A DNA stretch of 64,000 bases from the IMG/VR virus record IMGVR_UViG_3300018050_000923; one strand, 5' to 3'. The DNA comes from an uncultured virus (IMG/VR IMGVR_UViG_3300018050_000923) (Duplodnaviria > Heunggongvirae > Uroviricota > Caudoviricetes). The notes beneath the pieces are model-generated. The model searched no databases. It was not told the DNA's origin and saw nothing but the letters and a program-made list of their open reading frames with translations. Position 1 is the first letter of the stretch. Each line of letters opens with the position of its first letter. The position numbers were made by a program, and so were the translations under genes. This document shows, in pieces, positions 4,394-23,096 of the stretch.

Positions 4394-4579
4394 ATGGAAA
4401 AATTATTTGCAGTTATTGAAAACAATAAAGTGGTTAACATTATTGTTGGCGTAGAAGATGAAGTAGTTGCTGCCAACCCTGGCAAGTATATTGAATACAC
4501 AAATGGTTGGGACTATAATAATGGAATAGATGGCGGAGTATTTTTCCAATTGCTAGAAAATTTGGAGGAAAATAATTAA
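4394..4579 (+). CDS. Small protein, possible fibre-assembly chaperone
   Basis: FAVIENNKVVNIIV start typical of genes following Gly-rich fibres; AGGAG RBS. Confidence 0.5.
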   Translation: MEKLFAVIENNKVVNIIVGVEDEVVAANPGKYIEYTNGWDYNNGIDGGVFFQLLENLEENN

Positions 4580-5205
4580 TGTCAACAGAAGTTAGCACAT
4601 CTAGTAAAGTAGTATATATGTATGATCAAGAAACCGATCTATGGTATTCTGTTGCTGGAGTTGCTAACGAAGGACATTCTTATAATTGGACTGCCCCTCA
4701 TACTTTTGGATCTGTAGTAACTGTAAATGATGTTATTCGTGCAAAAGGTGGAGTAAATAGATTTCAAAATCCTACTTCTAGGAATACAGTAATTACATCT
4801 CCAGTAAAAGGTACTGTTTGTTTTGTTGAACAAACTGATGGCGGTACCGATATAAACCAAGTTCAAATTTATAATGGTACATCATGGGTAGGAATGTTAG
4901 ATACTGCTACATTAAATAGTAAATCTACAGACTATACACTAGTATTAGGCGATGCTGGAAAAACATTATTAATTGATTCTACTATTGATAGAACTGTAAC
5001 AGTTCCAACTAATGCTTCTGTACCGTTTGCAATTGGGCAAAGGCTAGACATTGTAAGAATGAATACTGGCAATGTAACTATAGGCGGTACGCCAACAATT
5101 CTTAGTAAAAATTCTAACAAGAAAATTGCTGCGAGGTATTCTGGAGCAACTCTTATCAAAACTGATACAGATACCTGGGTACTTATTGGCGATTTGACAG
5201 CGTAG
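4579..5205 (+). CDS. Fibre/adaptor protein with C-terminal 'GDL' domain
   Basis: YTLVLGDAGK..TVTVPTNASVPFAIGQRLDI..YSGATLIK..WVLIGDL. Confidence 0.65.
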   Translation: MSTEVSTSSKVVYMYDQETDLWYSVAGVANEGHSYNWTAPHTFGSVVTVNDVIRAKGGVNRFQNPTSRNTVITSPVKGTVCFVEQTDGGTDINQVQIYNGTSWVGMLDTATLNSKSTDYTLVLGDAGKTLLIDSTIDRTVTVPTNASVPFAIGQRLDIVRMNTGNVTIGGTPTILSKNSNKKIAARYSGATLIKTDTDTWVLIGDLTA

Positions 5206-5212
5206 GTGCTCA

Positions 5213-6685
5213 ATGCTTGGATGGATAGGCAAATGGGCAAACTCCAAAGGTATGGGAAAGATCCCAAACCTTGAAGGCTTATCTAGAGCAGATGCAAGAA
5301 ATACAATTATAAATGCTGGATTTAATTTAGGAAATGAAACAGCAACTGGAAACGGTGCAAACTCTTCTAATAATGGAAAAGCAAAGGGAAGATCAGATAC
5401 TAATCAATTATTAAATTATGAATCACAAATAGATTTTGAATATTATGATCATGTAACTCCACCCGTCACTCCACCTGTTACTCCACCAGTCACCCCACCT
5501 GTGACCCCACCTGTCACTCCACCAGTCACCCCACCTGTGACCCCACCTGTGACTCCACCAGTCACCCCACCTGTTACCCCACCTGTTACACCACCTGTTA
5601 CACCACCTGTGACACCACCAGTGACTCCAGTAACAACATACTATTACGGATGGTGTGATCAAGGAACATTAGAACCTGTAATAGAGTCAACAATATATGG
5701 ACCTTGTTCTTCAATTCTTGCTGGATGGGAAAATTCTTATGGCTATCCTCCAATAGGATGGGCCTGTGGAACAACTCCAGCAGAAGGTATTCCAGATTGT
5801 ACTCTAGCACCTGTTACTCCACCTGTTACTCCACCTGTGACCCCACCTGTAACTCCACCTGTAACACCAGTATCAACAACTGTTTATTATAGTTATTGTG
5901 ATCAGGGAACCAATTATTTAGTAGGTCCATATTCTCATACTGCAACTGGAACAGTAGCATCAATATGTAATGATCTTTATAATAATTTTGATTACACTAA
6001 TGGATATCCTCCAGTTGGATGGGCTTGCGGTGCAACACAACAGGCAGGAACTGCTTCATGCACAACAGCACCTGTAACTCCACCAGTAACCCCACCAGTA
6101 ACCCCACCAGTAACCCCACCTGTGACCCCACCTTCATATAGCAACTACTATGGATTCTGCTCTACAACAAATTCACCACAAGGACCATTTGGACCATATA
6201 ATCAATCATGTTCTGATTTGGCAAATGGTGTAGAAAATGCATATGGGTATCTTCCAAGTGGATGGGTTTGCGGACCTTCTTCTGCAGCAGGAACACCTTC
6301 TTGTACTGTAGCGCCAGTCACCCCACCAGTAACCCCACCAGTAACCCCACCAGTTACTCCACCTGTGACTCCACCTGTGACTCCACCTGTGACTCCACCT
6401 GTGACTCCACCTGTGACTCCACCTGTGACTCCACCAGTCACCCCACCTGTGACTCCACCTGTGACTCCACCAGTAACCCCACCAGTAACCCCACCTGTGA
6501 CCCCATCAAGTAGCCAAACTTATTACTGGTGTTGCTGTGGAAATCTTGGAGGATGTCAATCATATACATTTAGTAGTGCATCAGAGGCTGCTGCAACAGC
6601 AAATGCTGTTTGTGAGGGAGGATATGGATCTGGATTATGCGGAGGACCAAGTACAAGTCCATCATCAGGATGCGGATGTCTGTAA
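5213..6685 (+). CDS. PASTA-like domain + (VTPP)n + Cys-rich module protein
   Basis: IPNLEGLSRADARNTIINAGFNLG (PASTA-like); about 38 VTPP units in 4 blocks; 3 homologous 4-Cys modules; 8-Cys tail. Confidence 0.8.
   Translation: MLGWIGKWANSKGMGKIPNLEGLSRADARNTIINAGFNLGNETATGNGANSSNNGKAKGRSDTNQLLNYESQIDFEYYDHVTPPVTPPVTPPVTPPVTPPVTPPVTPPVTPPVTPPVTPPVTPPVTPPVTPPVTPPVTPVTTYYYGWCDQGTLEPVIESTIYGPCSSILAGWENSYGYPPIGWACGTTPAEGIPDCTLAPVTPPVTPPVTPPVTPPVTPVSTTVYYSYCDQGTNYLVGPYSHTATGTVASICNDLYNNFDYTNGYPPVGWACGATQQAGTASCTTAPVTPPVTPPVTPPVTPPVTPPSYSNYYGFCSTTNSPQGPFGPYNQSCSDLANGVENAYGYLPSGWVCGPSSAAGTPSCTVAPVTPPVTPPVTPPVTPPVTPPVTPPVTPPVTPPVTPPVTPPVTPPVTPPVTPPVTPPVTPPVTPSSSQTYYWCCCGNLGGCQSYTFSSASEAAATANAVCEGGYGSGLCGGPSTSPSSGCGCL
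5453..6505 (+). repeat. 12-bp coding tandem repeat GTN ACN CCA CCN in four blocks (14, 4, 5, 15 full units)
   Basis: Blocks begin at 5453, 5813, 6074, 6317; variation only at third codon positions. Confidence 0.9.
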
Positions 6686-6693
6686 TAACCAAC

Positions 6694-6722
6694 TTGCAAA
6701 ATTTTTACTTTAATGATAGAAT
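6694..6722 (+). promoter_or_regulatory. Sigma70-type promoter for the enzyme cluster
   Basis: TTGCAA-17 bp-TAGAAT with TG extension; ATG at 6732. Confidence 0.65.
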
Positions 6723-6731
6723 GGAACTACT

Positions 6732-7079
6732 ATGTTAACGGATAACGATATATTATTTAATGATAACGATGAGTCGCAATTATTAGAAAAATTAAGTGTA
6801 GGTGATGAATATCACGTTCCTGGAACAATTGTTTGCATTTATGATAATGATGGAAATATTGAGGCTGCTAAACAGTTTTCTACGCATTCTTGGTTTATAG
6901 AAATATTACAAAATTCATCTAAAATAGAATGCGTAAATGATGATTGTTCAATTATTAAGTTTATTGACATTAATGATAATGAAATAAATCAGTTAACAAC
7001 TACATCACAACTTGGGTCAATGCTTGCAAGCAATCCAAAGTTACATTTTGGTCATTCTATAAGAACTAAGAAAGAATAA
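6732..7079 (+). CDS. Hypothetical protein
   Basis: ORF directly after the promoter. Confidence 0.55.
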   Translation: MLTDNDILFNDNDESQLLEKLSVGDEYHVPGTIVCIYDNDGNIEAAKQFSTHSWFIEILQNSSKIECVNDDCSIIKFIDINDNEINQLTTTSQLGSMLASNPKLHFGHSIRTKKE

Positions 7080-7081
7080 AA

Positions 7082-7312
7082 ATGACAACTCCGTGGGAGA
7101 GATATAAGCAAAATTTAGGATCAACAAGGCCTTGGGATTTATTAAATCCTCAAGCACCAAGAACAACAGATGAGGTCGCATACTCTAGATATAATATATG
7201 CTTGTTGTGTCCAGAACTAATTAATGCTACAAAGCAATGCAAGAAGTGTGGATGTTTCATGAACCTTAAAGTAAAATTAGAAGGGGCTACATGCCCATTA
7301 GGAAGGTGGTAA
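7082..7312 (+). CDS. Small Cys-rich metal-binding protein (DUF6171-like by recollection)
   Basis: CLLC..CKKCGC..CPLGRW. Confidence 0.6.
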   Translation: MTTPWERYKQNLGSTRPWDLLNPQAPRTTDEVAYSRYNICLLCPELINATKQCKKCGCFMNLKVKLEGATCPLGRW

Positions 7313-7314
7313 AT

Positions 7315-7881
7315 ATGAAAGAATTAGCGCCAGGAATAGTTGTTTTTGATAATATATTTCCAAACTCAATGGAGTATATAAAAAAAATAAATGAAGAAGA
7401 AATGTCTTGGCAGGCAGCAGAAGTTCTTGTTAGTCAAGATGAAAATAAATCAGGAACTAATTATAAGGCAAGAGATACAGATTTAATTATGCTGCCACAT
7501 CATATGAATAACGCTACTGGAACATTAGCAGATTTTGCTAAAGAATTTCATAAGGAGTTAAAACCATGTTTAGATCAATATTTAAGTTTTTATGCAGCAA
7601 AAATAGAAAAGTTTGAACACCCACAATTATTACGTTATGGTAAAGAACAAAAGTTTCATGATCACATTGACGATCATCCATTTTTTACAAGAAGAATATC
7701 TTTAACATATTATTTAAATGATCAATATGAGGGCGGGGATGTAGAGTTTAAGCGTTTTGGATTAAGGTTTAAAGCACAAAAAAATCAATTACTTATATTT
7801 CCATCTAACTTTGTATATAATCATGAAGTACATCCAGTTACAGATGGCTTAAGGTACGTGGTTGTTCAATGGATGGCATAA
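7315..7881 (+). CDS. 2OG-Fe(II) oxygenase, prolyl 4-hydroxylase-like
   Basis: LLRY..FHDHIDD..RISLTYYLND.YEGG..F..LIFPSNF.YNHEVHPV..GLRY: HxD..H triad and 2OG-binding Arg. Confidence 0.85.
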   Translation: MKELAPGIVVFDNIFPNSMEYIKKINEEEMSWQAAEVLVSQDENKSGTNYKARDTDLIMLPHHMNNATGTLADFAKEFHKELKPCLDQYLSFYAAKIEKFEHPQLLRYGKEQKFHDHIDDHPFFTRRISLTYYLNDQYEGGDVEFKRFGLRFKAQKNQLLIFPSNFVYNHEVHPVTDGLRYVVVQWMA

Positions 7882-8654
7882 AGAAATCTATTGTCTACTC
7901 TTTATACTTTGAAAATAATCCAATAACTCATCATAATTATTTACAATTAAAAAAATCTATAGAATCAATAAGAAAATTTTCTAATATAGATATTTTTATA
8001 TATTTATCTTCAGACTATGACTTAAAAGAAAATTTTATAAAAACAAATAACATAAATATTATAAAGTTTGATAATAATTTAGTGTTTAAAAAATGGAGCG
8101 ATAAAATACCAAACCACCCATGGAATGTTTGGCTTCATCATAGATGGATTAATATATTTAATTTTTTAACAAATAATGAATATGATAAGATTTTATATTT
8201 AGATACTGATACAATATTTTATAAGAGTCCAGAAGAACTTTTTAATAAATATAATAAAGATATATGTTATTTTAAAAAAGAGTTTAATGATAATGTTGTA
8301 CAAGATTTTATAAAAAAAATATCAATATATCCAGGCATAAATGATGGTCAAATGATTATAAGTAAAAATTCAATAATAAAACTATATGATTCATTTGAAA
8401 ATCAATGGACTAAAGAGATCAGTAACATTACAGATCTAGTTTATAATGATTTAACTAAAGATAATGATCATATATTTTTTTGGAATGTTTCACAATATGC
8501 AGCGCTTTCTTGTATTATAAAAAATAATATACAATATGAATATTTTGATGATAAAGATATTGCACTTGGCATAGACTTTGATCGCATGGACAAAAAAGAA
8601 ATATTTTTGCATCATTATTTTTCTGGAAATATGAGGAAATATATAAATGAATAA
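7869..8654 (+). CDS. GT-A fold glycosyltransferase (GT8-like)
   Basis: LKKSIESIRK..YDKILYLDTDTIF (DxD)..INDG..Q..HHYF; very AT-rich. Confidence 0.7.
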   Translation: MDGIKKSIVYSLYFENNPITHHNYLQLKKSIESIRKFSNIDIFIYLSSDYDLKENFIKTNNINIIKFDNNLVFKKWSDKIPNHPWNVWLHHRWINIFNFLTNNEYDKILYLDTDTIFYKSPEELFNKYNKDICYFKKEFNDNVVQDFIKKISIYPGINDGQMIISKNSIIKLYDSFENQWTKEISNITDLVYNDLTKDNDHIFFWNVSQYAALSCIIKNNIQYEYFDDKDIALGIDFDRMDKKEIFLHHYFSGNMRKYINE

Positions 8655-9207
8655 AGAATATGGAATAATAAAGAATGTTTTAAACACTAAAGACTTTTTA
8701 AATATTTCAAATTATTTTTTAAATAATGAAAAATTAAAAAATATTGGGACGGATGAGTTTGGTAGAAAGTTATTAGGTGATCAGTCTGAACCAATATTGA
8801 AAGAATTTAGCGATATCTTACTTCCCAAGGTTAGAGAGTTTTTTGGAAGCGAAACATTAAAATCTTCATATAATTTATTTGCAGAATATTCAGCAGACAC
8901 AATTAGTCTTCATAAGCATAAAGATGCAAATGCCTGTACGTATACCCTAGACTTAACGCTATATCAAAAAGAACCTTGGGGTATTTTTATCAATGAACAA
9001 GAGTTTTTGGCAAATCCAAATGATGCTGTAATGTTCATGGGTGAAAAATACGAACATTGGAGAGAAACAAAGTATAACAATTATGATAAAATTGGTGTAG
9101 TGTTTTTTCACTACGTTGAGCCAGATCATTGGTATTTTACAGAGGGTCCAGGGTATGTTGAAAAAATAAGAGAACAAATGAGGAGTAATAATGTCATCAA
9201 TAACTAG
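8647..9207 (+). CDS. 2OG-Fe(II) oxygenase-like protein
   Basis: LHKHKDANACTY..GEKYEHWRE..VFFHYV: HxD..H. Confidence 0.65.
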   Translation: MNKEYGIIKNVLNTKDFLNISNYFLNNEKLKNIGTDEFGRKLLGDQSEPILKEFSDILLPKVREFFGSETLKSSYNLFAEYSADTISLHKHKDANACTYTLDLTLYQKEPWGIFINEQEFLANPNDAVMFMGEKYEHWRETKYNNYDKIGVVFFHYVEPDHWYFTEGPGYVEKIREQMRSNNVINN

Positions 9208-9907
9208 CCCAATCGCTATTAAAAACTTTTTGCCACCGCATATGTTTGGCAATGTTAAAAAGCAAATATTAGATAAAAAAATGGGACCAGACGGAAATCA
9301 TTTTTATCACACCGTTGCTGGTAGATGGCTGACGGAAATTCATTTTGATGAAGAAACAGAAAAAGAAATCTTAGATATAGCAAGAAAAACATTTAATAAT
9401 CCAAACTTAAAACGTGCAGGGTTTCATACAGCAAGGTACCAAATGCAAAATGGAATTAAGCCACAATTGTGGAAGCATTGGGATCAGTCTGCTTGTCAGT
9501 ATTCTTTAGATATCTGTATTGAGAAAACTGTAGATTGGAAACTAGTTGTTGAAGATCAAGAATTTGAAGAAGAGCCTAATAGTTGTGTGCTATTTTCTGG
9601 AAACGATATGCTTCACTGGAGAACTCCATATCCTAGTGATAAAGAAGACGATTATGTAACATTATTATTTATGCAGTTTGCAGAGCCTGACCATTGGTTT
9701 TTTACAGAAGGTGGAAAGGCTGGCTTTGATAAGCATGGACATGAAGCGGACTTTAGATTTAGAGCCAGAATGGGATATTGGTCTCAGCCAGATTATTCCG
9801 ACGGAAGACCAATATGCCCATGCTGCGATTACCGTGGTGTTTTAGAATTTGAAGAACGATATCAAAAAGAAAAACACCTATGGGAAAATGCTAATTTGGA
9901 AAATTAG
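9191..9907 (+). CDS. 2OG-Fe(II) oxygenase-like protein, paralog of the previous gene
   Basis: LWKHWDQSACQY..GNDMLHWR..EPDHWFFTEG shared with 8647..9207; extra CPCC tail. Confidence 0.65.
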   Translation: MSSITSPIAIKNFLPPHMFGNVKKQILDKKMGPDGNHFYHTVAGRWLTEIHFDEETEKEILDIARKTFNNPNLKRAGFHTARYQMQNGIKPQLWKHWDQSACQYSLDICIEKTVDWKLVVEDQEFEEEPNSCVLFSGNDMLHWRTPYPSDKEDDYVTLLFMQFAEPDHWFFTEGGKAGFDKHGHEADFRFRARMGYWSQPDYSDGRPICPCCDYRGVLEFEERYQKEKHLWENANLEN

Positions 9908-10454: not shown

Positions 10455-10508
10455 AGTTTCCTCCTTAGAAACGAATAACACCTTTTTAGGGGTGTTATAT
10501 TACTTCTT

Positions 10509-10538
10509 AGTATAACACAATTTAGGCCAGGTAGTCAA
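10509..10538 (-). promoter_or_regulatory. Promoter for the transglycosylase gene
   Basis: Minus strand TTGACT-18 bp-TATACT with TG extension. Confidence 0.6.
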
Positions 10539-10542
10539 ATAA

Positions 10543-10551
10543 TGCTATAAT
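10543..10551 (+). promoter_or_regulatory. Extended -10 promoter (divergent)
   Basis: TGCTATAAT 8 nt before ATG 10560, no SD. Confidence 0.6.
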
Positions 10552-16272: not shown

Positions 16273-16316
16273 AAAGTAGTATAATTAAATAAATATTGAA
16301 TAGGAGAATGATCTAA

Positions 16317-17375
16317 ATGGCACTACAAAAAACAGGTGACAGAGGAATAAGAAAGGTAGAAGTACCTAATCTGTCAGGAATGACAAGAAGTCAATACCAG
16401 GCAGAGTTAACCCTAAAAGGTTTAACATATACCGAAACCACTACTACCACATCAAATTCTTCATTAGATCAAAAAATAAATACACAAGGCACTGTTGCTG
16501 GTACTATAGTTAATATAGGTACCAGCATTGCCATAAACTATTATCAGTATGTGTATCCTGGTTTTAGCCATTATGCTGCATTCAGCCACTACGCTGGTTT
16601 CAGCCACTACGCTGGTTTCAGCCACTACGCTGGTTTCAGCCACTACGCTGGATTCTCTCACTATGCTGGCTTCTATCACGGATTCTCCCATTACGGTGGA
16701 TTCTCACACTATGGTGGATTCTCACACTATGGTGGATTCAATCATTATGGAGGCTTCTATCATGGATTTAGCCACTATGGATCGTTCTCTCATCAATCAT
16801 ATGGCGGATTCTCACACTCATCATATGGTTCATTCTCACACTCATCATATGGTGGCTTCTATCACGGATTTAACCATTCCCCAGCATCGTACGGTGGATT
16901 TGGAGATTATTTCTCACTATCACCATCTACAGGTGTTAGAACTCCAGGCGGTATCGTAACTGCTGGATCTCTAAATGTTGGAGATAAATTATTAGCATTA
17001 AATATCGCAGAAGTTGGAACAGGTCAATTTGATCCAGCAACATGGTCTTCAGCAACATTTGATGGTATTGAAGTTGTTGAAACAGAGGTTGTGGCAATCA
17101 GAGAAAGAACTGTTGATAAAATTTACAACATCAATGGAAGCCTTTTCTCTCCATATCACTGGATATTTACAAGAAAGGATAATGTCTACAAGTTTGTATT
17201 GTCAAAAGATATTGACACATCATATGAAGTTTATGACTTTGCAAACCAAGATTGGTCTGCAGTTACAAACATCACAGAATTAAACTATATCGACAATGTA
17301 GTTTCTATTAACTGTGAACCTTATGATAACTTCTTTACAGAAACAATGTTAGTCTTCGATACGAAAGATAACTAA
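16317..17375 (+). CDS. PASTA-like domain + (xGFSHY)n repeats + C-terminal Hint domain
   Basis: VEVPNLSGMT..L..KGL (PASTA-like); 18 F-[S/Y/N]-H motifs; SLSPSTGV..LNVGDKL, SPYH, INCEPYDNFF..LVFD (Hint blocks A, B, F/G). Confidence 0.8.
   Translation: MALQKTGDRGIRKVEVPNLSGMTRSQYQAELTLKGLTYTETTTTTSNSSLDQKINTQGTVAGTIVNIGTSIAINYYQYVYPGFSHYAAFSHYAGFSHYAGFSHYAGFSHYAGFSHYAGFYHGFSHYGGFSHYGGFSHYGGFNHYGGFYHGFSHYGSFSHQSYGGFSHSSYGSFSHSSYGGFYHGFNHSPASYGGFGDYFSLSPSTGVRTPGGIVTAGSLNVGDKLLALNIAEVGTGQFDPATWSSATFDGIEVVETEVVAIRERTVDKIYNINGSLFSPYHWIFTRKDNVYKFVLSKDIDTSYEVYDFANQDWSAVTNITELNYIDNVVSINCEPYDNFFTETMLVFDTKDN
16560..16901 (+). repeat. Coding tandem repeat, mostly 18 bp (TTCAGCCACTACGCTGGT-like)
   Basis: Near-exact units at about 16581-16650 degenerating downstream; encodes GFSHY units. 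Confidence 0.9.
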
Positions 17376-17377
17376 CG

Positions 17378-18169
17378 GTGTCACGTAAATATAATAGAGA
17401 CTATTATCCTAATCATGATGCAGACGAGTTTTTATACTCCGATGACCTGGTTGCACTAAACAAAGAACTATTAAAAGATACTAGAGCAACACCATTTTTA
17501 ATTAGTTCTCAGGTGGCGGTAGAAACTAAGGCATATGAAAAACGAATAACTCCATTAATGCAGCAAGGCAAAATATCTGTTACTGTAGGAAATACAGATT
17601 GGAATAAAGAGTATGATGAGGGTAGATCATACTGGATACCTGAAAATAGGTGGGTGCATGAAACTAATCTAAAGCCAATAGAGATAGAAAAAAATCTATA
17701 TGAATTTAGAACGTCTGCAGATGTATTTTTCTTGCCAGCATCTTATGGATATTTTAGTAAACTCACAAATAATAAATATATTCTTCCTTTTCCAAGACCA
17801 GTTAGCAGAACTCTTTATCAACATTTAGAAGTAGATGAAGATATTTTAAAAGATTTAGATAATTCTTTAGAGTTAGAACAAGAGGATATAGACAATATAT
17901 ATAGTAAAGAAAATCCTAATGTTTTTTATCCTTATCCATATTTTTGGAATGTAAGGTGGCTACCTAAAAATTCATGCAAAATAACATTTTATACAACAGA
18001 AGAGACAGAAAAAATAACCAGGGTTCATGTACCACAAATTACTTTAGATTGTTTAGATGATATACAAAGTCTAAAAGTTCCTGTACAATTGTATATAGAT
18101 GTACGGAAAAAATCTCCGTATATAAAGCATGACGAACTAATCATGTACATGAGAGTAGAGGAAATTTAG
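17378..18169 (+). CDS. Hypothetical protein
   Basis: GTG-start ORF 2 nt after the Hint gene; possibly a diverged relative of the next two genes. Confidence 0.55.
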   Translation: MSRKYNRDYYPNHDADEFLYSDDLVALNKELLKDTRATPFLISSQVAVETKAYEKRITPLMQQGKISVTVGNTDWNKEYDEGRSYWIPENRWVHETNLKPIEIEKNLYEFRTSADVFFLPASYGYFSKLTNNKYILPFPRPVSRTLYQHLEVDEDILKDLDNSLELEQEDIDNIYSKENPNVFYPYPYFWNVRWLPKNSCKITFYTTEETEKITRVHVPQITLDCLDDIQSLKVPVQLYIDVRKKSPYIKHDELIMYMRVEEI

Positions 18170-18882
18170 TGTCAAAATCTAATAAAATAACTTTTATACC
18201 AAAAGATGAGTTTACATTTGAGTATGCTCCACTTCCAGAGCCTATGTCTAAAAACCTCCCATCTTGGTGGAGAAAAACAGAACCATTTGTAGGCGGAGAG
18301 CGCAAATTAATAAATGGACAATATAACGAAACAGTAAAAAAATGTCCAGGAATTCTTGATCAAATGGTAACTGGGTATATGTTAAAGTTTCCATGCGATA
18401 TTTATGTAGATGCTACTGGAGATGCTTTAGAGGTTCAGGTTCATCCAGTTCATAATGACACAGTAGGAAAACATAGCAGAGAACAAATAGAGGGATGGAC
18501 TTATGATAAAAATATATATGTTGATGATATTTTTAGAGTACACCCTATGTGGGTAATAGGAACACAAAAGGGATATAGCACGATGTTTGTTCATCCATCT
18601 TATCATGACGATCTACCCTTTGTTACAATTCCTGCTATAATAGATACAGATATGTATATTTCAGACGGACCATTTTCTTTACTAGTAAAGCGTGGCTTTA
18701 AAGGTACTATTGAAAAAGGAACTCCATTAGTTCAGTGTATACCATATAAAAGAGAAGAGTATAAATCTGAAATATTAGAAAAGCCAGACATGAAGGCTCT
18801 AGGGTCAATACCATATAAACTTAGGGCTAAATTCGGCGGAGCATACAAAAATTTCATGTGGGAAAAGAAGGTGTTTAAGTAA
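18169..18882 (+). CDS. Uncharacterised conserved protein (DUF6065-like by recollection)
   Basis: LPSWW..TVKKCPG..TGY..HPSYHDDLPF..IIDTD..KGTPLVQCIPYKRE. Confidence 0.65.
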   Translation: MSKSNKITFIPKDEFTFEYAPLPEPMSKNLPSWWRKTEPFVGGERKLINGQYNETVKKCPGILDQMVTGYMLKFPCDIYVDATGDALEVQVHPVHNDTVGKHSREQIEGWTYDKNIYVDDIFRVHPMWVIGTQKGYSTMFVHPSYHDDLPFVTIPAIIDTDMYISDGPFSLLVKRGFKGTIEKGTPLVQCIPYKREEYKSEILEKPDMKALGSIPYKLRAKFGGAYKNFMWEKKVFK

Positions 18883-19643
18883 TGTCTGATAAGATGGAGG
18901 ACAAGTATAAAGATGTTCCGCCAATGGAAGATCTGACTGCTCAATTTTGGGCATCAACAGCATATCAGATAACACCTCCACCAGTTCCAGCAATTGATAA
19001 TTTACCAGATTGGTGGAAAGATAGACCTCTATATCAAGTAACAGACGACATAAATAAACTAAGCGTAACTTGGAATAAAGGTGCAGATTCAGCAGCAATT
19101 AGTGTTAAACATTGTATGCCATTTTTTGATGCACTAACTATGGGATATCATTTACCATTAGCATGCGATGTTCATGTTAAGAAAACAGATAATCCAGATA
19201 AGCCAGAAATAACCTGGGATGACGATGCTCCACGTCCTATAGAAATGAGAGGACATATAGAGATTCCAGTACCTTCTGGATGTTACCCAATTCATTTTCT
19301 TTGGGATATGAGATGGGGATGTAAACTTCCAGATGGTTGGTCTTTAATGATTACTCATCCTACAAATAGATACGATCTTCCATTTTTTACTGTTACTGCA
19401 ATACAAGATTCAGACAGATGGTTTGGTGGAAATGTTGTAACATTCTTTTTAAGAAAAGATTTTGAAGGAACCATTCCTAAAGGAACCCCAATTATACAAT
19501 TTACTCCAATTAAAAGAGCAAATTGGACAATGGAGATAGATCATGATCTTCAGGCCGAAGGTCTTTGGGATGTAGAAAGAAAAAGAAATTATCTTTATGG
19601 ATTTTACAAGAAACACCGTTGGGTGAGAAAAAAATATAGATAG
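18882..19643 (+). CDS. Paralog of 18169..18882
   Basis: LPDWW..SVKHCMP..MGY..HPTNRYDLPF..QDSD..KGTPIIQFTPIKR. Confidence 0.65.
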   Translation: MSDKMEDKYKDVPPMEDLTAQFWASTAYQITPPPVPAIDNLPDWWKDRPLYQVTDDINKLSVTWNKGADSAAISVKHCMPFFDALTMGYHLPLACDVHVKKTDNPDKPEITWDDDAPRPIEMRGHIEIPVPSGCYPIHFLWDMRWGCKLPDGWSLMITHPTNRYDLPFFTVTAIQDSDRWFGGNVVTFFLRKDFEGTIPKGTPIIQFTPIKRANWTMEIDHDLQAEGLWDVERKRNYLYGFYKKHRWVRKKYR

Positions 19644-19651
19644 GAAAAAAT

Positions 19652-20314
19652 ATGGAAAACAGATCAAGTTATGGCGATGCATTTCAGCCTAGTACAAGTA
19701 AGTCTACAAAAGAACATAAATTCTTTGAGAGACAAATAGATATCAATAATTTAGATGCTCTTGAATCTCTTCTTTTATCTCAATACAAAAGAATAGAAAA
19801 TGGAGAAGTAGTTAAGCAAAAACTAAACGATCATACCCCATGGGATGATTCTGGAAGTATAACTACTATGAATTGGAACAAGTATAATGTTTTTCAGTTT
19901 TATGATCAAAACATTCATACACTGTTTCGTGCCGTAAAGGATATGACTGTAGATGCTTGTGAGCATTATGGACTTGATTTTGTTCAAGAACAATTTATGG
20001 TTCAGGGATGGTTTAATGTTAACTATAATCATATCGGAAAATTGGACTGGCACGAGCACGGAGGAGATGGTGCTCCTTACTTCCATGGATATTATTGCGT
20101 AAAGGCAGAACCATCAGTTACTCATTATCGTGTTTTTGAAAAAGAAATAGAAAACCACAATAGAAATAATCGTGCCATACTTTCTGAAACTGGGCATCCA
20201 CATGCTATGGGTGACTGGGACTGGGATGGTCCAAGAATAACTATAGCGTATGATGTTATTCCGCTAAGATATATTCCAAAGGAATGGGAGCAACACTGGA
20301 TCCCAATGGTGTGA
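19652..20314 (+). CDS. Putative 2OG-Fe(II)/cupin oxygenase
   Basis: GWFNVN..DWHEH..GYYCV..HPHAM..RITIAYD double-stranded beta-helix pattern. Confidence 0.65.
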   Translation: MENRSSYGDAFQPSTSKSTKEHKFFERQIDINNLDALESLLLSQYKRIENGEVVKQKLNDHTPWDDSGSITTMNWNKYNVFQFYDQNIHTLFRAVKDMTVDACEHYGLDFVQEQFMVQGWFNVNYNHIGKLDWHEHGGDGAPYFHGYYCVKAEPSVTHYRVFEKEIENHNRNNRAILSETGHPHAMGDWDWDGPRITIAYDVIPLRYIPKEWEQHWIPMV

Positions 20315-20315
20315 T

Positions 20316-20645
20316 ATGGAATATTTCCTAATTGCATTATTATTACTATTTTCTTTAGTTTTTAAAAAGTATTCTATTGATACAAAATTAACAATTAAAG
20401 AATTAGAAAAAGATAAAAACTATTTTAGAAATACACTATGGAATAGGCTTTATTATTTAAATAAAGATGCAAAATCTACAGATTTTAGATATCAAAACTT
20501 GAAAAAAAGAATTGATGTATTAATTAATGATATAGAAGATACTGATTTTTCAAATTTTGATGGAGATGCAAAATATGAATTAATAAATGCATTAAAAGAG
20601 ATAGATTTTTATGGAGATTCAAATGATTCAAATAAAAATAAATAA
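20316..20645 (+). CDS. Small protein with N-terminal membrane anchor
   Basis: FLIALLLLFSLVF. Confidence 0.5.
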   Translation: MEYFLIALLLLFSLVFKKYSIDTKLTIKELEKDKNYFRNTLWNRLYYLNKDAKSTDFRYQNLKKRIDVLINDIEDTDFSNFDGDAKYELINALKEIDFYGDSNDSNKNK

Positions 20646-20823
20646 GTCTTGCCAGGCTTGGGGACAGTGTGTTTTTGATGCTCCAGAAATATTCGATCTT
20701 GTAGATAGTGAAAGAAAAACATGGAAGTATAATGCTGATGATTCTATGTTAGAAAAAATATCTATCGCAGCATCACATTGTCCCAACAGAGCAATATCAT
20801 TTAAAAAGGTTGAAGATGAATAG
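20623..20823 (+). CDS. 3Fe-4S-type ferredoxin
   Basis: CQAWGQC...APEIF...AASHCPNRAI. Confidence 0.8.
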   Translation: MIQIKINKSCQAWGQCVFDAPEIFDLVDSERKTWKYNADDSMLEKISIAASHCPNRAISFKKVEDE

Positions 20824-20941
20824 TTTGATTTGTAAAATTAAGGGACATAAAGCAGATAAAAAAGAAACGACTTGTCCATTTACATTAAAAACCTATCAGG
20901 TGTGTGTAAGGTGCGGTATCAAAAGGGTTAAACCAGAATGA
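20816..20941 (+). CDS. 41-aa Cys/His zinc-binding-like protein (absent from ORF track)
   Basis: MNSLICKIKGHKADKKETTCPFTLKTYQVCVRCGIKRVKPE; overlaps both neighbours (ATGA coupling). Confidence 0.65.
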   Translation: MNSLICKIKGHKADKKETTCPFTLKTYQVCVRCGIKRVKPE

Positions 20942-22089
20942 AAATAGCAGCATACGGAATAGGTAAAAACGAAGAAAAAAATATACCAGGTTGGTTTGAA
21001 GGTATAAAAGATGCAGATTACGTTTTATATGTAGATACTGGATCAACGGATAAGAGTGTTGAGATAGCAAAATCTTTAGGAATTGATGTTAAGTTTTCTT
21101 ACTTTGACCCGTGGGATGAAACAATGGCTAAAAATGCTGCTCTTTCTTTTATACCATTGGACTTTGATTATTGCATTAACCTAGACATGGATCAACACAT
21201 GAAAAGCAAAGATTGGAAAGAAAAGATATTATTAGAAAATGGCGATTACGAAATAATGTCTTTTAACTTACACTCTTCTCACGGCTTAGCAGATTCTAAT
21301 GTAATTAAAAAATCATTTAAGATCCATAAAAGACAAGGACTTTTTTGGTTTGGATATAGACCAGAAATTAAAAAAATAGGATACAACATTGAAACTGCTT
21401 CTGCTAAAACCTTAGATATAGTGGTTTCTGACATTCCTGGAGATGAGGCTAGGTTTGAAAACAGGGATCCTTTGTATATTAAGTCGTATAAAAATTATGT
21501 AGGAAAATTAAAAAGATCTAGAAATAATGGCATTATGGTTCAGGCTTTAAATTCTTTAGCATTGTCATATTATGAAGTAGACGATAAAGAAAATTTTGAA
21601 AATGTTTATTATGAAATGCAAGAGTTTATATCAAAGGTAGAAGTTGAAAATGATGTAGAAATACCAGATCAGTATGCTGTTAATTTAGCATACACTTTAT
21701 TTAATCCTAATAAAACAATAGATATTTATAATAAGTTATATGGATCTTCAGAAATAAGTTCATATCAAAAATTTTATTTAGATTTAAGAAAAGCAATAAT
21801 TTATTATAAGAAAAAAGAATATCAAAGATTAGAAAAAATATTAAATTTGATTGATTCTGAAAAAACATTTTATGAAGGCAACGAAACCAGATGGGATTCA
21901 TATGCTTTATCAGAAACAGAAATAAACATAATAAAATATTTAAAAAATATAAAAGAAAACAAAAACAATCAAGAATATATAAATGAATTAGATAATCTGT
22001 GTCTTATTGTGTTTTCTAGCATAAATTGGGGCAAGTGGCACACTGATTTAGCACAAAAAAGTTTTGATTATTTTGAGGGGCTAATGTGA
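20938..22089 (+). CDS. GT2-family glycosyltransferase with helical C-terminus
   Basis: GKNEEKNI..VDTGSTDKS..KNAAL..NLDMD. Confidence 0.75.
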   Translation: MKIAAYGIGKNEEKNIPGWFEGIKDADYVLYVDTGSTDKSVEIAKSLGIDVKFSYFDPWDETMAKNAALSFIPLDFDYCINLDMDQHMKSKDWKEKILLENGDYEIMSFNLHSSHGLADSNVIKKSFKIHKRQGLFWFGYRPEIKKIGYNIETASAKTLDIVVSDIPGDEARFENRDPLYIKSYKNYVGKLKRSRNNGIMVQALNSLALSYYEVDDKENFENVYYEMQEFISKVEVENDVEIPDQYAVNLAYTLFNPNKTIDIYNKLYGSSEISSYQKFYLDLRKAIIYYKKKEYQRLEKILNLIDSEKTFYEGNETRWDSYALSETEINIIKYLKNIKENKNNQEYINELDNLCLIVFSSINWGKWHTDLAQKSFDYFEGLM

Positions 22090-23096
22090 ACACAGTAATG
22101 GTAACTGGCGTTGCTGGTTTAGTTGGAAGCAATATTGCTAAAAAATTAATATCAGAAGGATATAATATTGTAGGTGTAGACAATTTTATAGGTGGATATA
22201 GAGATAATGTTCCAGAAGGCGTTTTTCTTATTGAAAAAGATTGCAATGATTTAACAGAGACTGATTTTATTAATGTAGAAACTGTAGTTCATGCTGCATG
22301 TACACCGCATGAAGGTCTTTCTGTTTTTTCCCCAAAGTTTATAACAGATAATACATTTGGCATATCCATGAATGTTTTAAAATGCTCAATACAGTCTGGT
22401 GTTAAAAAGTTTATTTTTACATCAAGTATGGCAAGATACGGTTCTCAAGACATAGTTCCATTTACTGAAGATATGATCCCAAATCCACAAGATCCGTACG
22501 GTATAGCAAAAATTGCATTTGAAAATTCTCTTAAAATTCTTTCAGAAGTTCACGGTATAAAATATGTAGTATTAATTCCACACAATATTATTGGTCCTGG
22601 ACAAGTATATACAGATCCATTTAGAAATGTTGCAGGAATTATGATAAATAGAATGCTAAAAGGATTACAGCCAATAGTCTATGGTGATGGTACTCAAATG
22701 AGATGTTTTTCTGATATTAAAGATGTTGTGGATCCAATATACCATGCTGTAGTAAATGATACAGTAAATGGAGAAACCATAAATATTGGTCCAGATAAAA
22801 ACTATATAACTATTAATGAATTAGCACATACTATAGGAAAAATTATAGGGATGAATGTCGAACCAATATATCTTCCAAAAAGGCCTAAAGAGGTTAAGTT
22901 TGCTAATTGTTCTGCAGACAAAGCAAGAAGTTTATTAAATTATAACCCTGTAACAACTCTTGAATCAACAATTACTGATATGGTAAACTGGGTTAGAACA
23001 AGAGGTCCATTAGATTTTAATTATAATTTACCTGTTGAAATTGTAAATGAATTAACTCCAAAAACTTGGACAGATCAAAAAGTTTTTAATACATAA
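22086..23096 (+). CDS. NAD-dependent nucleotide-sugar epimerase/dehydratase
   Basis: VTGVAGLVGS, SSMARYG, YGIAK (YxxxK), YGDGTQMRCF. Confidence 0.9.
   Translation: MNTVMVTGVAGLVGSNIAKKLISEGYNIVGVDNFIGGYRDNVPEGVFLIEKDCNDLTETDFINVETVVHAACTPHEGLSVFSPKFITDNTFGISMNVLKCSIQSGVKKFIFTSSMARYGSQDIVPFTEDMIPNPQDPYGIAKIAFENSLKILSEVHGIKYVVLIPHNIIGPGQVYTDPFRNVAGIMINRMLKGLQPIVYGDGTQMRCFSDIKDVVDPIYHAVVNDTVNGETINIGPDKNYITINELAHTIGKIIGMNVEPIYLPKRPKEVKFANCSADKARSLLNYNPVTTLESTITDMVNWVRTRGPLDFNYNLPVEIVNELTPKTWTDQKVFNT

What the first reader, a model, noticed from the sequence alone, without database searches (positions are those of the whole stretch)
4579..23096. Two parallel 'fibre adaptor - PASTA/repeat precursor - tailoring enzymes' cassettes: candidate phage system for post-translational decoration of virion fibres
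Seen: the same three-part architecture occurs twice (4579-9907 and 14377-23096). Each has a fibre gene ending in a homologous GDL domain, then a gene with an ~80-aa PASTA-like N-terminus ending in YY followed by a low-complexity repeat, then a dense run of oxygenase/glycosyltransferase/redox genes. The repeat chemistry differs (Thr/Pro versus Phe/Ser/His/Tyr) and so does the enzyme set. Known: RiPP clusters pair repetitive precursors with adjacent tailoring enzymes. Inference: the many 'orphan' phage 2OG oxygenases and GTs here are not metabolic auxiliaries but modify the neighbouring repeat protein, giving swappable, chemically diversified virion appendages for adhesion, host range or protection. 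I do not recall this being described as a system.
Basis: partly seen in the sequence, partly recalled or inferred. Interest (0 to 1): 0.92.

Follow-up and report, generated by a model that had tools for sequence, protein, structure and literature searches.

The report
Phage fibre-tip repeats with matching tailoring enzymes
An uncultured phage follows two of its tail-fibre genes with repeat-rich fibre-tip proteins and enzyme genes whose families change together with the repeat chemistry in related phages, so the enzymes probably decorate the fibres, though no chemistry has been shown.

Summary

**Anatomy**
- Both cassettes hold a fibre ending in a homologous GDL knob.
- Each fibre is followed by a protein with a homologous PASTA-type N-domain and tandem repeats, then enzyme genes.

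- P1 is a modular fibre-tip protein: four Cys-rich modules joined by (TPPV)n linkers. In relatives it is fused to the fibre. It is not a RiPP-style precursor.
- The two "oxygenase" paralogs w18169 and w18882 have a dUTPase-like fold.

**Comparative evidence (about 100 related IMG/VR loci)**
- Slot 1: Pro-rich linkers sit beside oxygenases in 25 of 25 dereplicated clusters; other linkers do so in 3 of 15.
- Slot 2: Pro/Phe repeats sit beside prolyl-hydroxylase-type genes in 16 of 16 clusters; other repeats in 0 of 22.
- Phylogenetically independent pairs agree, with p about 0.03 for each slot.

**Caveats**
- Adjacent genes may simply travel together.
- The same enzyme families also lie elsewhere in these genomes.
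- The cassette-2 enzymes are mostly unidentified.
- No chemistry has been shown.

The scan noted this system before on other DNA. I found no paper describing it.

The parts
4579..5205 (+). Cassette 1 fibre adaptor (208 aa) ending in the 'GDL' knob domain
   Evidence: C-terminal 115 residues homologous to the w14377 fibre, E 1e-11. PHROG tail and virion-protein C-termini match. In relatives it is fused in frame to the linker/module protein.
5213..6685 (+). P1: PASTA-type N-domain (residues ~15-82) followed by four (TPPV)n linkers alternating with four Cys-rich modules
   Evidence: Translation. Tandem arrays at 5452-5629, 5808-5869, 6069-6132 and 6323-6505. N-domain homologous to that of P2. A family member scores 40.4 bits on PASTA.
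6732..7079 (+). Unknown 115-aa gene, seen only in the closest relatives
   Evidence: No Pfam or PHROG hit. Three further copies in related loci (family G32).
7082..7312 (+). DUF6171-like small Cys-rich protein, near-universal first gene behind slot-1 fibre proteins
   Evidence: Pfam DUF6171 22.5 bits, below cut-off. phrog_13558 E 1.9e-14. Present in 33 of 33 clusters whose fibre protein has at least 10 Cys, against 3 of 7 others.
7291..7881 (+). Prolyl-hydroxylase-type 2OG-Fe(II) oxygenase; the only PF13640 gene in the 117.6-kb genome
   Evidence: Pfam PF13640 59.2 bits. The family profile hits solved prolyl 4-hydroxylases, best E 8.7e-13. Single copy in the genome.
7869..8654 (+). Putative GT-A glycosyltransferase (DxD-like 'DTDT'); weakly supported
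   Evidence: Only sub-threshold Pfam hits: Mannosyl_trans3 E 0.03 and Nucleotid_trans E 0.8. No PDB sequence hit.
8647..9207 (+). Member of the '8647' family, with invariant H-x-D...H-x-R; candidate metal-dependent oxygenase, unproven
   Evidence: Paralog of w9191, E 8e-19. Invariant H91, D93, H137, R139. No PDB hit. hhalign to the P4H family is not significant.
9191..9907 (+). Second '8647'-family paralog
   Evidence: A third paralog lies at genome 103524-104408, next to a carbamoyltransferase.
14377..16272 (+). Cassette 2 fibre (631 aa): Mtd_N head, coiled coil, GDL knob
   Evidence: Pfam Mtd_N 53.2 bits. PHROG tail-fibre families. Knob homology.
16317..17375 (+). P2: PASTA domain (16356-16529), (GFSHYA)n aromatic/His repeat (~16521-16904), Hint domain from Ser200 (16914-17372)
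   Evidence: PASTA 26.1 bits. Tandem arrays. AF2 model of the C-terminus has pLDDT 87.3. Foldseek gives 44 PDB hits at E<=1e-3; those listed are inteins, BIL domains and Hedgehog.
17378..18169 (+). Unknown 263-aa gene that always accompanies the GFSHYA-type protein
   Evidence: Present in 13 of 13 FxHY clusters and in no other type. No Pfam or PDB hit.
18169..18882 (+). DUF6065-related protein with a dUTPase-like fold (not an oxygenase)
   Evidence: AF2 pLDDT 88.7. VIA-align: the 22 chains with Z>=5 are dUTPases, dCTP deaminases or viral proteins of that fold, top Z 9.3. Paralog L028:3205-4029 hits Pfam DUF6065 at 38.3 bits.
18882..19643 (+). Second DUF6065-related paralog
   Evidence: BLASTP to w18169 E 7e-24. 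phrog_7084.
19652..20314 (+). His-rich protein (invariant H134, H136, H145, H182, H184); possible metal enzyme
   Evidence: Alignment. 0 of 12 members hit a relevant Pfam family. Language-model neighbours carry PF13759, a lead only.
20316..20645 (+). Small protein with a hydrophobic N-terminus
   Evidence: Translation. Present in 12 of 13 FxHY clusters.
20611..20823 (+). Single-cluster 4Fe-4S ferredoxin
   Evidence: Pfam Fer4_13 26.6 bits. Present in 13 of 13 FxHY clusters.
20938..22089 (+). GT2-type glycosyltransferase N-domain plus helical C-terminal part; variable accessory gene
   Evidence: PHROG E 3.6e-29. The PDB chain named GmaR matches at E 1.3e-5, residues 4-138. Present in 7 of 13 FxHY clusters.
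22086..23096 (+). NAD-dependent nucleotide-sugar epimerase/dehydratase; variable accessory gene
   Evidence: Pfam Epimerase 147.9 bits. Present in 6 of 13 FxHY clusters.

Best explanation
The window comes from a 117.6-kb siphovirus-like phage belonging to an abundant uncultured family. The host is probably actinobacterial.

Behind each of two tail fibres that end in a 'GDL' knob lies a hypervariable slot. Each slot holds a fibre-tip protein made of folded modules joined by, or ending in, a low-complexity repeat. Each slot also holds a set of enzymes that I infer act on that repeat after translation.

Cassette 1 (inferred steps)
- The prolyl-hydroxylase-type enzyme w7291 hydroxylates prolines of the (TPPV)n linkers of P1. 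The two 8647-family proteins may take part too.
- A glycosyltransferase (w7869 here; a PF11397 enzyme in relatives) adds sugar to hydroxyproline or threonine.
- The result would be stiff, protease-resistant spacers like those of hydroxyproline-rich glycoproteins or mucins, set between Cys-rich binding modules.

Cassette 2 (inferred steps)
- P2 carries a PASTA domain, a Gly/Ser/Tyr/Phe/His repeat and a C-terminal Hint domain.
- I infer that the Hint domain cuts itself off at Ser200. This would leave the repeat with a free or transferable C-terminus.
- The conserved six-gene block w17378-w20823, plus the optional GT2 and epimerase, tailors this repeat by chemistry not yet identifiable.

Shown: the anatomy, the homologies, the folds and the co-variation. 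Inferred: every chemical step, and the presence of P2 in virions.
For: Family and slots
- The anchor gene w11758 finds at least 481 related IMG/VR contigs, and 80 were fetched.
- Their backbone is syntenic, with two variable slots.

Slot 1: 89 loci with the lysozyme boundary, 56 usable, 40 dereplicated clusters.
- Pro-rich linkers: 25 of 25 have an oxygenase-type gene (P4H-type, 8647-type or cupin).
- Thr-rich linkers: 2 of 9. No linker: 1 of 6.
- PF11397-family or w7869-type GT: 11 of 25 Pro-rich, 7 of 9 Thr-rich, 0 of 6 without linker.
- Fisher p 8e-8, uncorrected for relatedness.
- On a backbone tree, 7 independent pairs differ in linker type. The oxygenase follows in 5-6 and opposes in 0; median p 0.031.

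Slot 2: 53 usable loci, 38 clusters.
- Pro/Phe repeats: 16 of 16 have P4H-type genes (2-6 copies in the loci). Other repeat types: 0 of 22.
- GFSHYA-type repeats: 13 of 13 have w17378, two DUF6065-related genes, w19652 and the ferredoxin.
- Six of 6 independent pairs agree, p 0.031, with at least 12 type changes on the tree.

Further support
- The same enzyme-repeat pairing recurs in both slots.
- When the slot-1 protein carries aromatic motifs, they match the slot-2 repeat type in 14 of 15 loci.
- Enzyme families in the slots act on proteins where characterised: P4H-type, Asp/Asn beta-hydroxylase, radical SAM/SPASM and PF11397 GT, and a GT2 matching the chain named GmaR.
- Fusions of fibre and linker protein place P1 on the fibre.
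- w7291 is the only PF13640 gene in this genome, and it lies three genes behind the only Pro-rich repeat protein.
- The Hint fold is confidently predicted. Position 1 is Ser or Cys in every sequence that covers that column.
Against: - No chemistry, proteomics or expression data exist.
- Repeat gene and enzymes are adjacent, so block transfer by recombination alone could yield the co-variation. The number of independent events is small (6-7 pairs per slot, p about 0.03).
- My thresholds (Pro at least 24% or 30%) were set after seeing the data.
- The enzyme families are not confined to the slots. Complete related genomes with Gly/Phe-type repeats hold 5-6 PF13640 matches, several far from the fibre region. 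This genome has DUF6065 paralogs beside two halogenase-like genes, and an 8647 paralog beside a carbamoyltransferase.
- GT2 and epimerase come and go without change in P2 (7 and 6 of 13).
- For cassette 2, no enzyme has an identified activity on Tyr, His, Phe or Ser. w18169/w18882 have a dUTPase-like fold.
- The window's Hint domain ends in Phe-Asp, not His-Asn. It has Ser, not Cys, at position 1, so its activity is unproven.
- Chlorovirus work found no hydroxyproline in virions despite a viral P4H (PMC7019647, passages read).
Confidence: 0.55

Rival explanations
1. Recombination hot-spot cargo. The enzymes are accessory genes that pile up in the hypervariable regions beside fibre genes. They act on something other than the fibre proteins, such as host envelope glycans, nucleotide sugars, small molecules or other phage proteins. 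The repeat-enzyme association then reflects a few cassette alleles moving as blocks.
For: - Further copies of the same families lie elsewhere in the genomes.
- This genome also carries two halogenase-like genes, a carbamoyltransferase, a sulfotransferase, an APS kinase and a GT61 outside the cassettes.
- GT2 and epimerase vary independently of P2.
- Only about 4-5 slot-2 cassette types were seen.
Against: - The pairing of Pro-rich repeats with P4H-type or 8647-type genes recurs in two different slots, with different repeat sequences and gene orders.
- Within the Pro/Phe type the enzyme number and order vary while the pairing holds.
- Slot 1 has no enzymes at all where the fibre protein lacks Pro/Thr linkers (5 of 6 clusters).
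- Several of the families modify proteins where characterised.
Confidence: 0.25
2. The prolyl-hydroxylase-type enzyme w7291 serves the collagen-like fibre proteins a few kilobases upstream (w2-709 and w719-1438), as collagen P4Hs do, and not the (TPPV)n linkers.
For: - Two collagen-repeat proteins lie upstream.
- The P4H-type family profile hits solved chains named prolyl 4-hydroxylase or procollagen-proline dioxygenase best (3itq, 5hv0, 5iax), E 8.7e-13.
Against: - The collagen-like genes are part of the constant backbone, while slot-1 P4H varies. Of 21 dereplicated clusters that reach the collagen-like genes, 10 have a slot-1 P4H and 11 do not.
- A 72.7-kb relative (67% complete) with the collagen-like genes has no PF13640 match at all.
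- P4H presence tracks linker proline content instead.
Confidence: 0.1
3. RiPP-like reading. The repeats are multi-core precursors that are modified, cut out and released as small peptides, with the Hint domain or an unknown protease doing the cutting.
For: - The units are tandem and identical.
- Radical SAM/SPASM genes occur in some relatives' slot 1.
- Some relatives have Cys-rich tails after the repeat.
Against: - The repeats sit inside large proteins with PASTA, FN3, Cys-rich and Hint domains and are fused to fibres.
- The same repeat types serve as linkers between modules.
- No protease, leader-recognition or export gene was seen in either cassette.
Confidence: 0.05
4. The repeats are unmodified spacers whose 'dialects' arise from replication slippage and gene conversion between the two fibre-tip genes. 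The enzymes are unrelated to them.
For: - The same repeat type occurs in both fibre-tip proteins of one genome in 14 of 15 loci, as gene conversion would give.
- All three reading frames are open across the arrays.
Against: This does not explain why the enzyme sets change with the dialect in both slots, nor why enzyme genes are absent where linkers are absent.
Confidence: 0.05

Closest known systems
Virion glycosylation of mycobacteriophages by phage-encoded glycosyltransferases (Freeman et al. 2023, Cell Host Microbe; PMC10527164 is not held, so I saw only the description and reference in PMC12619734 and the reference in PMC12801897)
   Same: Phages of Actinobacteria whose own enzymes decorate virion proteins after translation, on terminal or low-complexity stretches.
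   Different: There the targets are the C-termini of capsid and tail-tube subunits and only sugars are added. Here the targets would be fibre-tip linkers and repeats, and the enzyme sets include hydroxylase-type, radical SAM and unknown families. A Hint domain is also part of the substrate protein. Nothing has been shown experimentally here.
Chlorovirus PBCV-1 prolyl 4-hydroxylase (Eriksson et al. 1999, cited in the review PMC7019647; I read passages of the review only)
   Same: [quoted passage not shown] The w7291 family profile hits PDB 5c5t, named 'Prolyl 4-hydroxylase', at E 1.5e-8. Earlier scan notes call 5c5t the PBCV-1 enzyme; I did not check that.
   Different: The PBCV-1 enzyme's role is unknown and no hydroxyproline was found in its virions (PMC7019647). 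It is a eukaryotic virus, and no gene-neighbourhood link to a substrate was reported in the passages I read.
Skp1 prolyl-hydroxylation and glycosylation pathway of Dictyostelium and Toxoplasma (PhyA, then Gnt1 and further transferases; PMC3515798, abstract and passages read)
   Same: A cytoplasmic P4H followed by a GlcNAc transferase acting on the new hydroxyproline. Relatives of this phage carry a PF11397 'Glycosyltransferase (GlcNAc)' gene in slot 1. That PF11397 is the Gnt1 family is my recollection, not a call result.
   Different: Skp1 has a single regulatory proline; here there are long structural repeats. The window itself has no PF11397 gene, and w7869 does not hit that family.
Bacterial intein-like (BIL) and Hedgehog-type Hint domains
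   Same: The P2 C-terminus has the Hint fold: best PDB matches are 2lwy (BIL domain), 1mi8 (DnaB intein), 6y75 (Tetrahymena BIL2) and 1at0/6tyy (Hedgehog). It sits at the extreme C-terminus, like autoprocessing rather than splicing Hints.
   Different: It has a Ser nucleophile and ends in Phe-Asp instead of His-Asn. It follows an aromatic repeat on a phage fibre-module protein. Cleavage or transfer is untested.
Hydroxyproline-rich glycoproteins (extensins) and mucin-type linkers; Pro/Thr linkers of bacterial glycoside hydrolases (recalled, no call)
   Same: Pro/Thr-rich extended spacers between folded modules that are hydroxylated and/or O-glycosylated.
   Different: Those are cellular secreted proteins modified in secretory compartments or the periplasm. 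Here the modification would occur in the host cytoplasm during phage assembly.

Membership tests
PASTA domain (PF03793) | Pfam score above the gathering cut-off (23.2 bits) | tested here: met
   P2 scores 26.1 bits. P1 alone scores 17.7 bits, not met. Its family member L053 scores 40.4 bits, and the P1 and P2 N-terminal profiles align at probability 97.3%.
Hint / intein-like autoprocessing domain | Hint fold | tested here: met
   AF2 pLDDT 87.3, pTM 0.84. Foldseek finds 44 PDB matches at E<=1e-3; those listed are inteins, BIL domains and Hedgehog; TM up to 0.80.
Hint / intein-like autoprocessing domain | Nucleophile (Cys/Ser/Thr) at position 1 | tested here: met
   Ser200 of P2 aligns with Cys1 of the canonical relative L066. 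Ser or Cys is present in every sequence that covers the column.
Hint / intein-like autoprocessing domain | C-terminal His-Asn needed for splicing or C-terminal cleavage | tested here: not met
   The window has Phe-Asp. Relatives have His-Asp, Tyr-Asp or His-Asn. It is therefore not a splicing intein; N-terminal cleavage is still possible.
Hint / intein-like autoprocessing domain | Self-cleavage activity | not testable with these tools
   Needs expression of P2 and an S200A mutant.
Prolyl 4-hydroxylase-type 2OG-Fe(II) oxygenase (PF13640) | Pfam score above cut-off, and H-x-D conserved | tested here: met
   w7291 scores 59.2 bits against a cut-off of 27. H125 and D127 are invariant in 18 family members. 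Best PDB relatives are prolyl 4-hydroxylases, E 8.7e-13.
Prolyl 4-hydroxylase-type 2OG-Fe(II) oxygenase (PF13640) | Hydroxylates peptidyl proline | not testable with these tools
   Substrate is inferred from co-variation only.
2OG-FeII_Oxy_5 (PF13759), for w19652 | Pfam match | tested here: not met
   0 of 12 family members hit it at E<=0.1. Only language-model neighbours carry it.
DUF6065 (PF19541), for w18169/w18882 | Pfam match | tested here: inconclusive
   The two cassette genes have no hit at E<=1. Their paralog L028:3205-4029 scores 38.3 bits and is 30-32% identical to them. The fold is dUTPase-like.
2OG oxygenase, for w8647/w9191 | Detectable homology to 2OG oxygenases | tested here: inconclusive
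   hhalign against the P4H-type family gives probability 0.4%, E 0.17, although H-x-D and the distal His fall in register. No PDB hit. H91, D93, H137 and R139 are invariant.
RiPP biosynthetic cluster | Short precursor (leader plus core) with a dedicated protease, exporter or recognition element | tested here: not met
   P1 is 490 aa and P2 352 aa, both with folded domains. In relatives the counterpart is fused to fibres. No protease or transporter family appears in either cassette.
Skp1-type hydroxyproline glycosylation (P4H plus PF11397 GT) | PF11397 glycosyltransferase next to the P4H | tested here: not met
   The window's w7869 has no PF11397 hit. Relatives have one, with 33 slot-1 genes in that family.
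Phage virion glycosylation (mycobacteriophage type) | Glycans on virion proteins that depend on phage GTs | not testable with these tools
   Needs virions or co-expression.

The most novel reading that the evidence does not exclude
An abundant family of actinobacterial phages builds fibre tips from low-complexity 'dialects' (TPPV, PT, Thr-rich, FFPP, FG-type, YSFTP, GFSHYA). Each dialect is matched by its own phage-encoded enzyme set (prolyl-hydroxylase-type, PF11397 GT, radical SAM/SPASM, DUF6065, unknown families). The result would be an extensin- or mucin-like, enzyme-cured adhesive material on a virus. A Hint domain would then use its (thio)ester intermediate to cleave the repeat's C-terminus or ligate it covalently to another molecule.

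If true, this gives many 'orphan' phage 2OG oxygenases a substrate. It also defines a swappable substrate-plus-enzyme module for host recognition.
Probability: 0.3. Interest if true: 0.85.

Novelty: new variant of a known kind. Interest (0 to 1): 0.72.

Why it matters
Phage genomes from water are full of 2OG-Fe(II) oxygenases and glycosyltransferases that are usually filed as auxiliary metabolic genes, with no known substrate.

Here the substrate is suggested by comparative genomics: the low-complexity parts of the phage's own fibre-tip proteins. If correct:
- Receptor-binding structures of phages can be chemically tailored by the phage itself.
- Fibre and enzyme set are exchanged as a unit.
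- Sequence-based host-range prediction misses a chemical layer.

The system is directly testable by co-expression and mass spectrometry. It also offers new protein hydroxylases, glycosyltransferases and a Ser-type Hint domain for study.

Tried and rejected
- Megablast of the whole region against 50,697 phage records: no match.
- tblastn of P2 against phages: only 3 weak Erwinia phage hits to the Hint part. tblastn of w19652: none.
- Plain BLASTP of P1 against P2 found no N-terminal homology. Profiles were needed.
- PDB sequence-profile searches for the DUF6065-related, 8647 and w17378 families, and for w7869, gave nothing usable.
- Foldseek of the w18169 model gave no hit at E<=1e-3. Only the wide VIA search showed the dUTPase-like fold.
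- hhalign of the 8647 and w19652 families against the P4H-type family: not significant.
- NCBIfam added nothing for the cassette genes beyond w7291 and w22086.
Whether the PASTA domain docks on the knob is therefore untested.
- I considered that the PASTA domain marks the split (unfused) form as a docking module. This is compatible with 10 split against 30 fused-or-other clusters but unproven.
- Literature searches for phage + prolyl 4-hydroxylase + tail fiber, phage + 2OG-Fe + tail fiber + post-translational modification, DUF6065 (0 papers), freshwater actinophage + oxygenase + tail fiber and phage + Hint domain + tail fiber + autoprocessing returned no title or abstract describing this system. 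I read only the listings, and subscription journals are not covered.

Full report
**Where the window lies.** The window is bases 23020-87019 of a 117,625-bp IMG/VR virus record that CheckV rates complete.
- The genome encodes a portal, prohead protease, HK97-type capsid protein, a 3207-residue tape-measure protein, DnaB, primase, Pol III alpha, RecA and a class II ribonucleotide reductase.
- The portal is 45-46% identical to portals of large Streptomyces siphoviruses.
- A WhiB-family gene (44.3 bits, over the cut-off) lies at genome 109153-109326. Together with the PF17338 (Gene product 88) gene, this points to an actinobacterial host. That is inference only.
- No near relative is in the 50,697 deposited phage records.

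**The observation.**
- The two fibres share a C-terminal knob of about 115 residues ending in GDL (33% identity, E 1e-11).
- P2 (w16317-17375) has a PASTA domain above Pfam's cut-off. P1 (w5213-6685) falls below it on its own (17.7 bits), and BLASTP sees no similarity between P1 and P2.
- A P1-family member in a relative scores 40.4 bits on PASTA. Profiles of the two N-terminal families align at probability 97.3%, E 2.6e-11. The N-domains are therefore homologous.
- The repeats are genuine tandem arrays: 12-nt units for TPPV in four arrays, and 18- and 24-nt units for GFSHYA-type units.

- P1 is four (TPPV)n linkers alternating with four Cys-rich modules of about 55 residues. It is a modular protein, not a repeat precursor.
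- P2 ends in a 153-residue domain that AlphaFold models with pLDDT 87.3. Foldseek matches it to 44 solved chains at E<=1e-3. Those listed are inteins, bacterial intein-like domains and Hedgehog autoprocessing domains. This is a Hint fold.
- Ser200 aligns with the Cys1 of relatives that have canonical Cys...His-Asn Hint domains. The window's domain ends in Phe-Asp. It is not a splicing intein but could still perform the N-terminal acyl shift and cleavage.
- w18169 and w18882, read as oxygenases, are distant DUF6065 relatives. Their model (pLDDT 88.7) has a dUTPase-like fold: the 22 chains with Z>=5 are dUTPases, dCTP deaminases or viral proteins of that fold, with a top Z of 9.3 followed by a drop to 4.5.
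- w8647/w9191, w17378 and w19652 remain unidentified.
- Well supported: w7291 as a prolyl-hydroxylase-type 2OG oxygenase, w20611 as a ferredoxin and w22086 as an epimerase/dehydratase.
- Also supported: w20938 as a GT2-type transferase. Its N-domain matches the PDB chain named GmaR at E 1.3e-5. A reference title seen in PMC3150276 calls GmaR a bifunctional O-GlcNAc transferase governing flagellar motility. That it glycosylates flagellin is my recollection.

**Relatives.** P1 and P2 searches found a few IMG/VR contigs.
- The conserved 148-residue gene w11758 then showed the family is large: 481 of 597 candidate stretches encode a relative, and 80 loci were fetched.
- I labelled genes by BLAST against the window's proteins and by de novo clustering.
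- The backbone is constant: collagen-like fibres, w1455-w2935, minus-strand lysozyme, w10560-w13849, the w14377 fibre, the RNR and w25237.
- Two places vary: slot 1, between the first GDL fibre and the lysozyme, and slot 2, between the second GDL fibre and the RNR.

**Slot 1.**
- In many relatives the fibre, and sometimes w2935 as well, is fused in one frame to the linker-and-module protein. In those forms there is no PASTA domain between knob and linker. A pattern-based count gives 10 split and 30 fused-or-other among 40 clusters. This Rosetta-stone evidence places P1 at the distal end of the fibre.
- Linker chemistry differs between phages: TPPV, PT, APTPT, APV, Thr-rich (TTQA, TTTTTAGPYNPP) or none. 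In some phages aromatic repeats take the same positions between modules.
- Counts: of 89 loci with the lysozyme boundary, 56 were usable and fell into 40 dereplicated clusters.
  - Pro-rich linkers: 25 of 25 have an oxygenase-type gene (P4H-type, 8647-type or cupin).
  - Thr-rich linkers: 2 of 9. Both exceptions also carry FFP motifs.
  - No linker: 1 of 6.
  - PF11397-family or w7869-type GT genes: 11 of 25, 7 of 9 and 0 of 6.
- Fisher's test on oxygenases gives 8e-8 but ignores relatedness.
- On a tree of four backbone proteins, 7 independent pairs differ in linker type. The oxygenase goes the same way in 5-6 and the other way in 0, median p 0.031.
- The Pro threshold (24%) was chosen after looking at the data.
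- Other slot-1 genes in relatives include radical SAM/SPASM proteins, cupins and epimerases.
- The small Cys-rich DUF6171-like gene (w7082) is present in 33 of 33 clusters whose fibre protein has at least 10 cysteines and in 3 of 7 others.

**Slot 2.** The gene after the fibre always has a basic N-terminus, then PASTA or 2-4 FN3 domains, then an aromatic tandem repeat, and then a Hint domain, a Cys-rich tail or nothing. Of 53 usable loci, 38 clusters remain.
- Pro/Phe repeats (FFPP type, Pro 34-41%): 16 of 16 have P4H-type genes (2-6 copies in the loci), plus a DUF6065-related gene (16 of 16) and a canonical DUF6065 gene (15 of 16).
- Gly/Phe repeats: 0 of 8 have a P4H-type gene in the slot; 6 of 8 have w19652-type genes. 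Five have a P4H-type gene behind the RNR.
- GFSHYA-type repeats, as in the window: 0 of 13 have a P4H-type gene. All 13 have w17378, two DUF6065-related genes, w19652 and the ferredoxin. Twelve have the small hydrophobic protein, 7 the GT2 and 6 the epimerase.
- The single YSFTP locus has one DUF6065-related gene.
- On a backbone tree of 33 rows (5 left out for lack of backbone columns), the cassette type changes at least 12 times. All 6 independent pairs that differ in FFPP type also differ in P4H, p 0.031.

**Cross-checks.**
- Where the slot-1 protein carries at least 3 aromatic motifs, they are of the slot-2 type in 14 of 15 loci. The exception is L042. One genome thus tends to use one dialect in both fibre-tip proteins, and enzyme sets may serve both.
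- The window differs: TPPV in slot 1 and GFSHYA in slot 2. It has two distinct enzyme sets.
- w7291 is the only PF13640 gene in this genome.
- The collagen-like genes are backbone, whereas slot-1 P4H is present in 10 and absent in 11 of the 21 clusters that reach them. A 72.7-kb relative that has the collagen-like genes shows no PF13640 match, though it is only 67% complete.

**Against the reading.**
- Repeat gene and enzymes are neighbours, so block exchange alone can create the pattern. Only 6-7 independent contrasts per slot exist.
- Complete genomes with Gly/Phe repeats hold 5-6 PF13640 matches, several far from the fibres.
- In this genome DUF6065 paralogs sit beside two tryptophan-halogenase-like genes, and an 8647 paralog beside a carbamoyltransferase.
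- GT2 and epimerase are dispensable for the GFSHYA type.
- No cassette-2 enzyme has an assignable reaction.
- In chloroviruses a viral P4H exists, yet no hydroxyproline was found in virions (PMC7019647, passages).

**Mechanism I commit to (confidence 0.55).** Phage-encoded enzymes tailor the low-complexity parts of the fibre-tip proteins in the host cytoplasm before or during assembly.
- Cassette 1: proline hydroxylation of the TPPV linkers by w7291 (possibly also by w8647/w9191), followed by glycosylation (w7869).
- Cassette 2: self-removal of the Hint domain at Ser200, and tailoring of the Gly/Ser/Tyr/Phe/His repeat by the conserved w17378-w20823 block. The GT2 and epimerase would optionally add sugar, perhaps to the serine in each unit.
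- The PASTA domains may bind peptidoglycan or dock the protein on the knob.

**Comparison with what is known.**
- The closest principle in print is glycosylation of mycobacteriophage capsid and tail-tube C-termini by phage glycosyltransferases (Freeman et al. 2023; seen only as described in PMC12619734).
- The closest viral enzyme is the chlorovirus P4H (PMC7019647).
- The closest pathway logic is Skp1 hydroxylation and glycosylation (PMC3515798).
- None of these combines fibre-tip repeat dialects, co-varying enzyme sets and a Hint domain.
- Five literature searches listed no paper on such a system. I read listings only, and subscription journals are not covered.

**Earlier scan notes.** Notes from this scan, seen after my analysis, describe the same kind of cassette in other genomes of what appears to be the same phage family, including a Ser-type Hint ending in Phe-Asp. 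They are AI notes and not independent evidence. My counts come from my own calls.

**What this window adds.**
- The proline-free GFSHYA dialect with its own enzyme block.
- The linker-type slot with fusions to the fibre.
- The dialect concordance between slots.
- The dUTPase-like fold of the DUF6065-related proteins.

Noticed in passing
window 59581-61125 and 61871-62584; genome 111657-112865 and 110204-111028 (L028:4658-5866, L028:3205-4029): Two tryptophan-halogenase-family genes (Pfam E 4e-102 and 1.5e-30) each lie within about 1 kb of a DUF6065-type paralog. One pair sits among the replication genes. A recurrent halogenase-DUF6065 pairing may hint at what DUF6065 proteins do.
   Followed up: partly
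genome 102063-104408 (L027:15064-17409): A carbamoyltransferase gene is directly followed by the third 8647/9191-family paralog (294 aa). A ferredoxin lies about 1.3 kb further on.
   Followed up: no
genome 388-1149 and 117168-117605, minus strand: The same APS-kinase-like gene appears at both ends of the record (98.6% identity over 145 residues). The 'linear' record therefore probably overlaps itself, as a complete circularly permuted or terminally redundant genome would. A sulfotransferase gene lies nearby.
   Followed up: no
window 2-709, 719-1438, 1455-2321, 3896-4384: Upstream of cassette 1 lie two collagen-repeat fibre proteins, a protein with a Listeria-Bacteroides repeat domain and a Gly-rich-domain protein. 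All belong to the constant backbone of the family.
   Followed up: partly
window 38486-48109: A 3207-residue tape-measure protein (PhageMin_Tail, E 2.4e-27). This implies an unusually long tail if the usual length rule holds.
   Followed up: no
window 7082-7312 and homologues in related loci: The DUF6171-like small protein with CxxC...CxxCGC motifs tracks cysteine-rich fibre modules: 33 of 33 clusters with at least 10 Cys against 3 of 7 others. It could be a metal or disulfide helper for these modules.
   Followed up: partly
L080:4068-6362, L066:5414-6847, L030:496-2250: In some relatives the slot-1 fibre protein also ends in a Hint domain, canonical Cys...His-Asn in L080 and L066. These proteins use aromatic repeats as linkers between Cys-rich modules.
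   Followed up: partly
L094:5429-6364, L096:3269-4273, L081 slot 1: Radical SAM/SPASM genes sit in slot 1 of some relatives, beside Cys-rich fibre proteins. They have weak sub-threshold similarity to peptide-maturase families.
   Followed up: partly
window 9891-10481, minus strand: The only minus-strand gene in the region is an SLT-type lysozyme (PF18896, E 3e-15) with a signal-peptide-like N-terminus. It is conserved as the right boundary of slot 1 in all loci that reach it.
   Followed up: no
phage records (HF1/HF2, HRTV, HCTV haloviruses): The DUF6065-related protein w18169 has its only hits among deposited phages in 49 haloarchaeal tailed viruses (24-29% identity) and 3 cyanophages. All are annotated hypothetical.
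   Followed up: no
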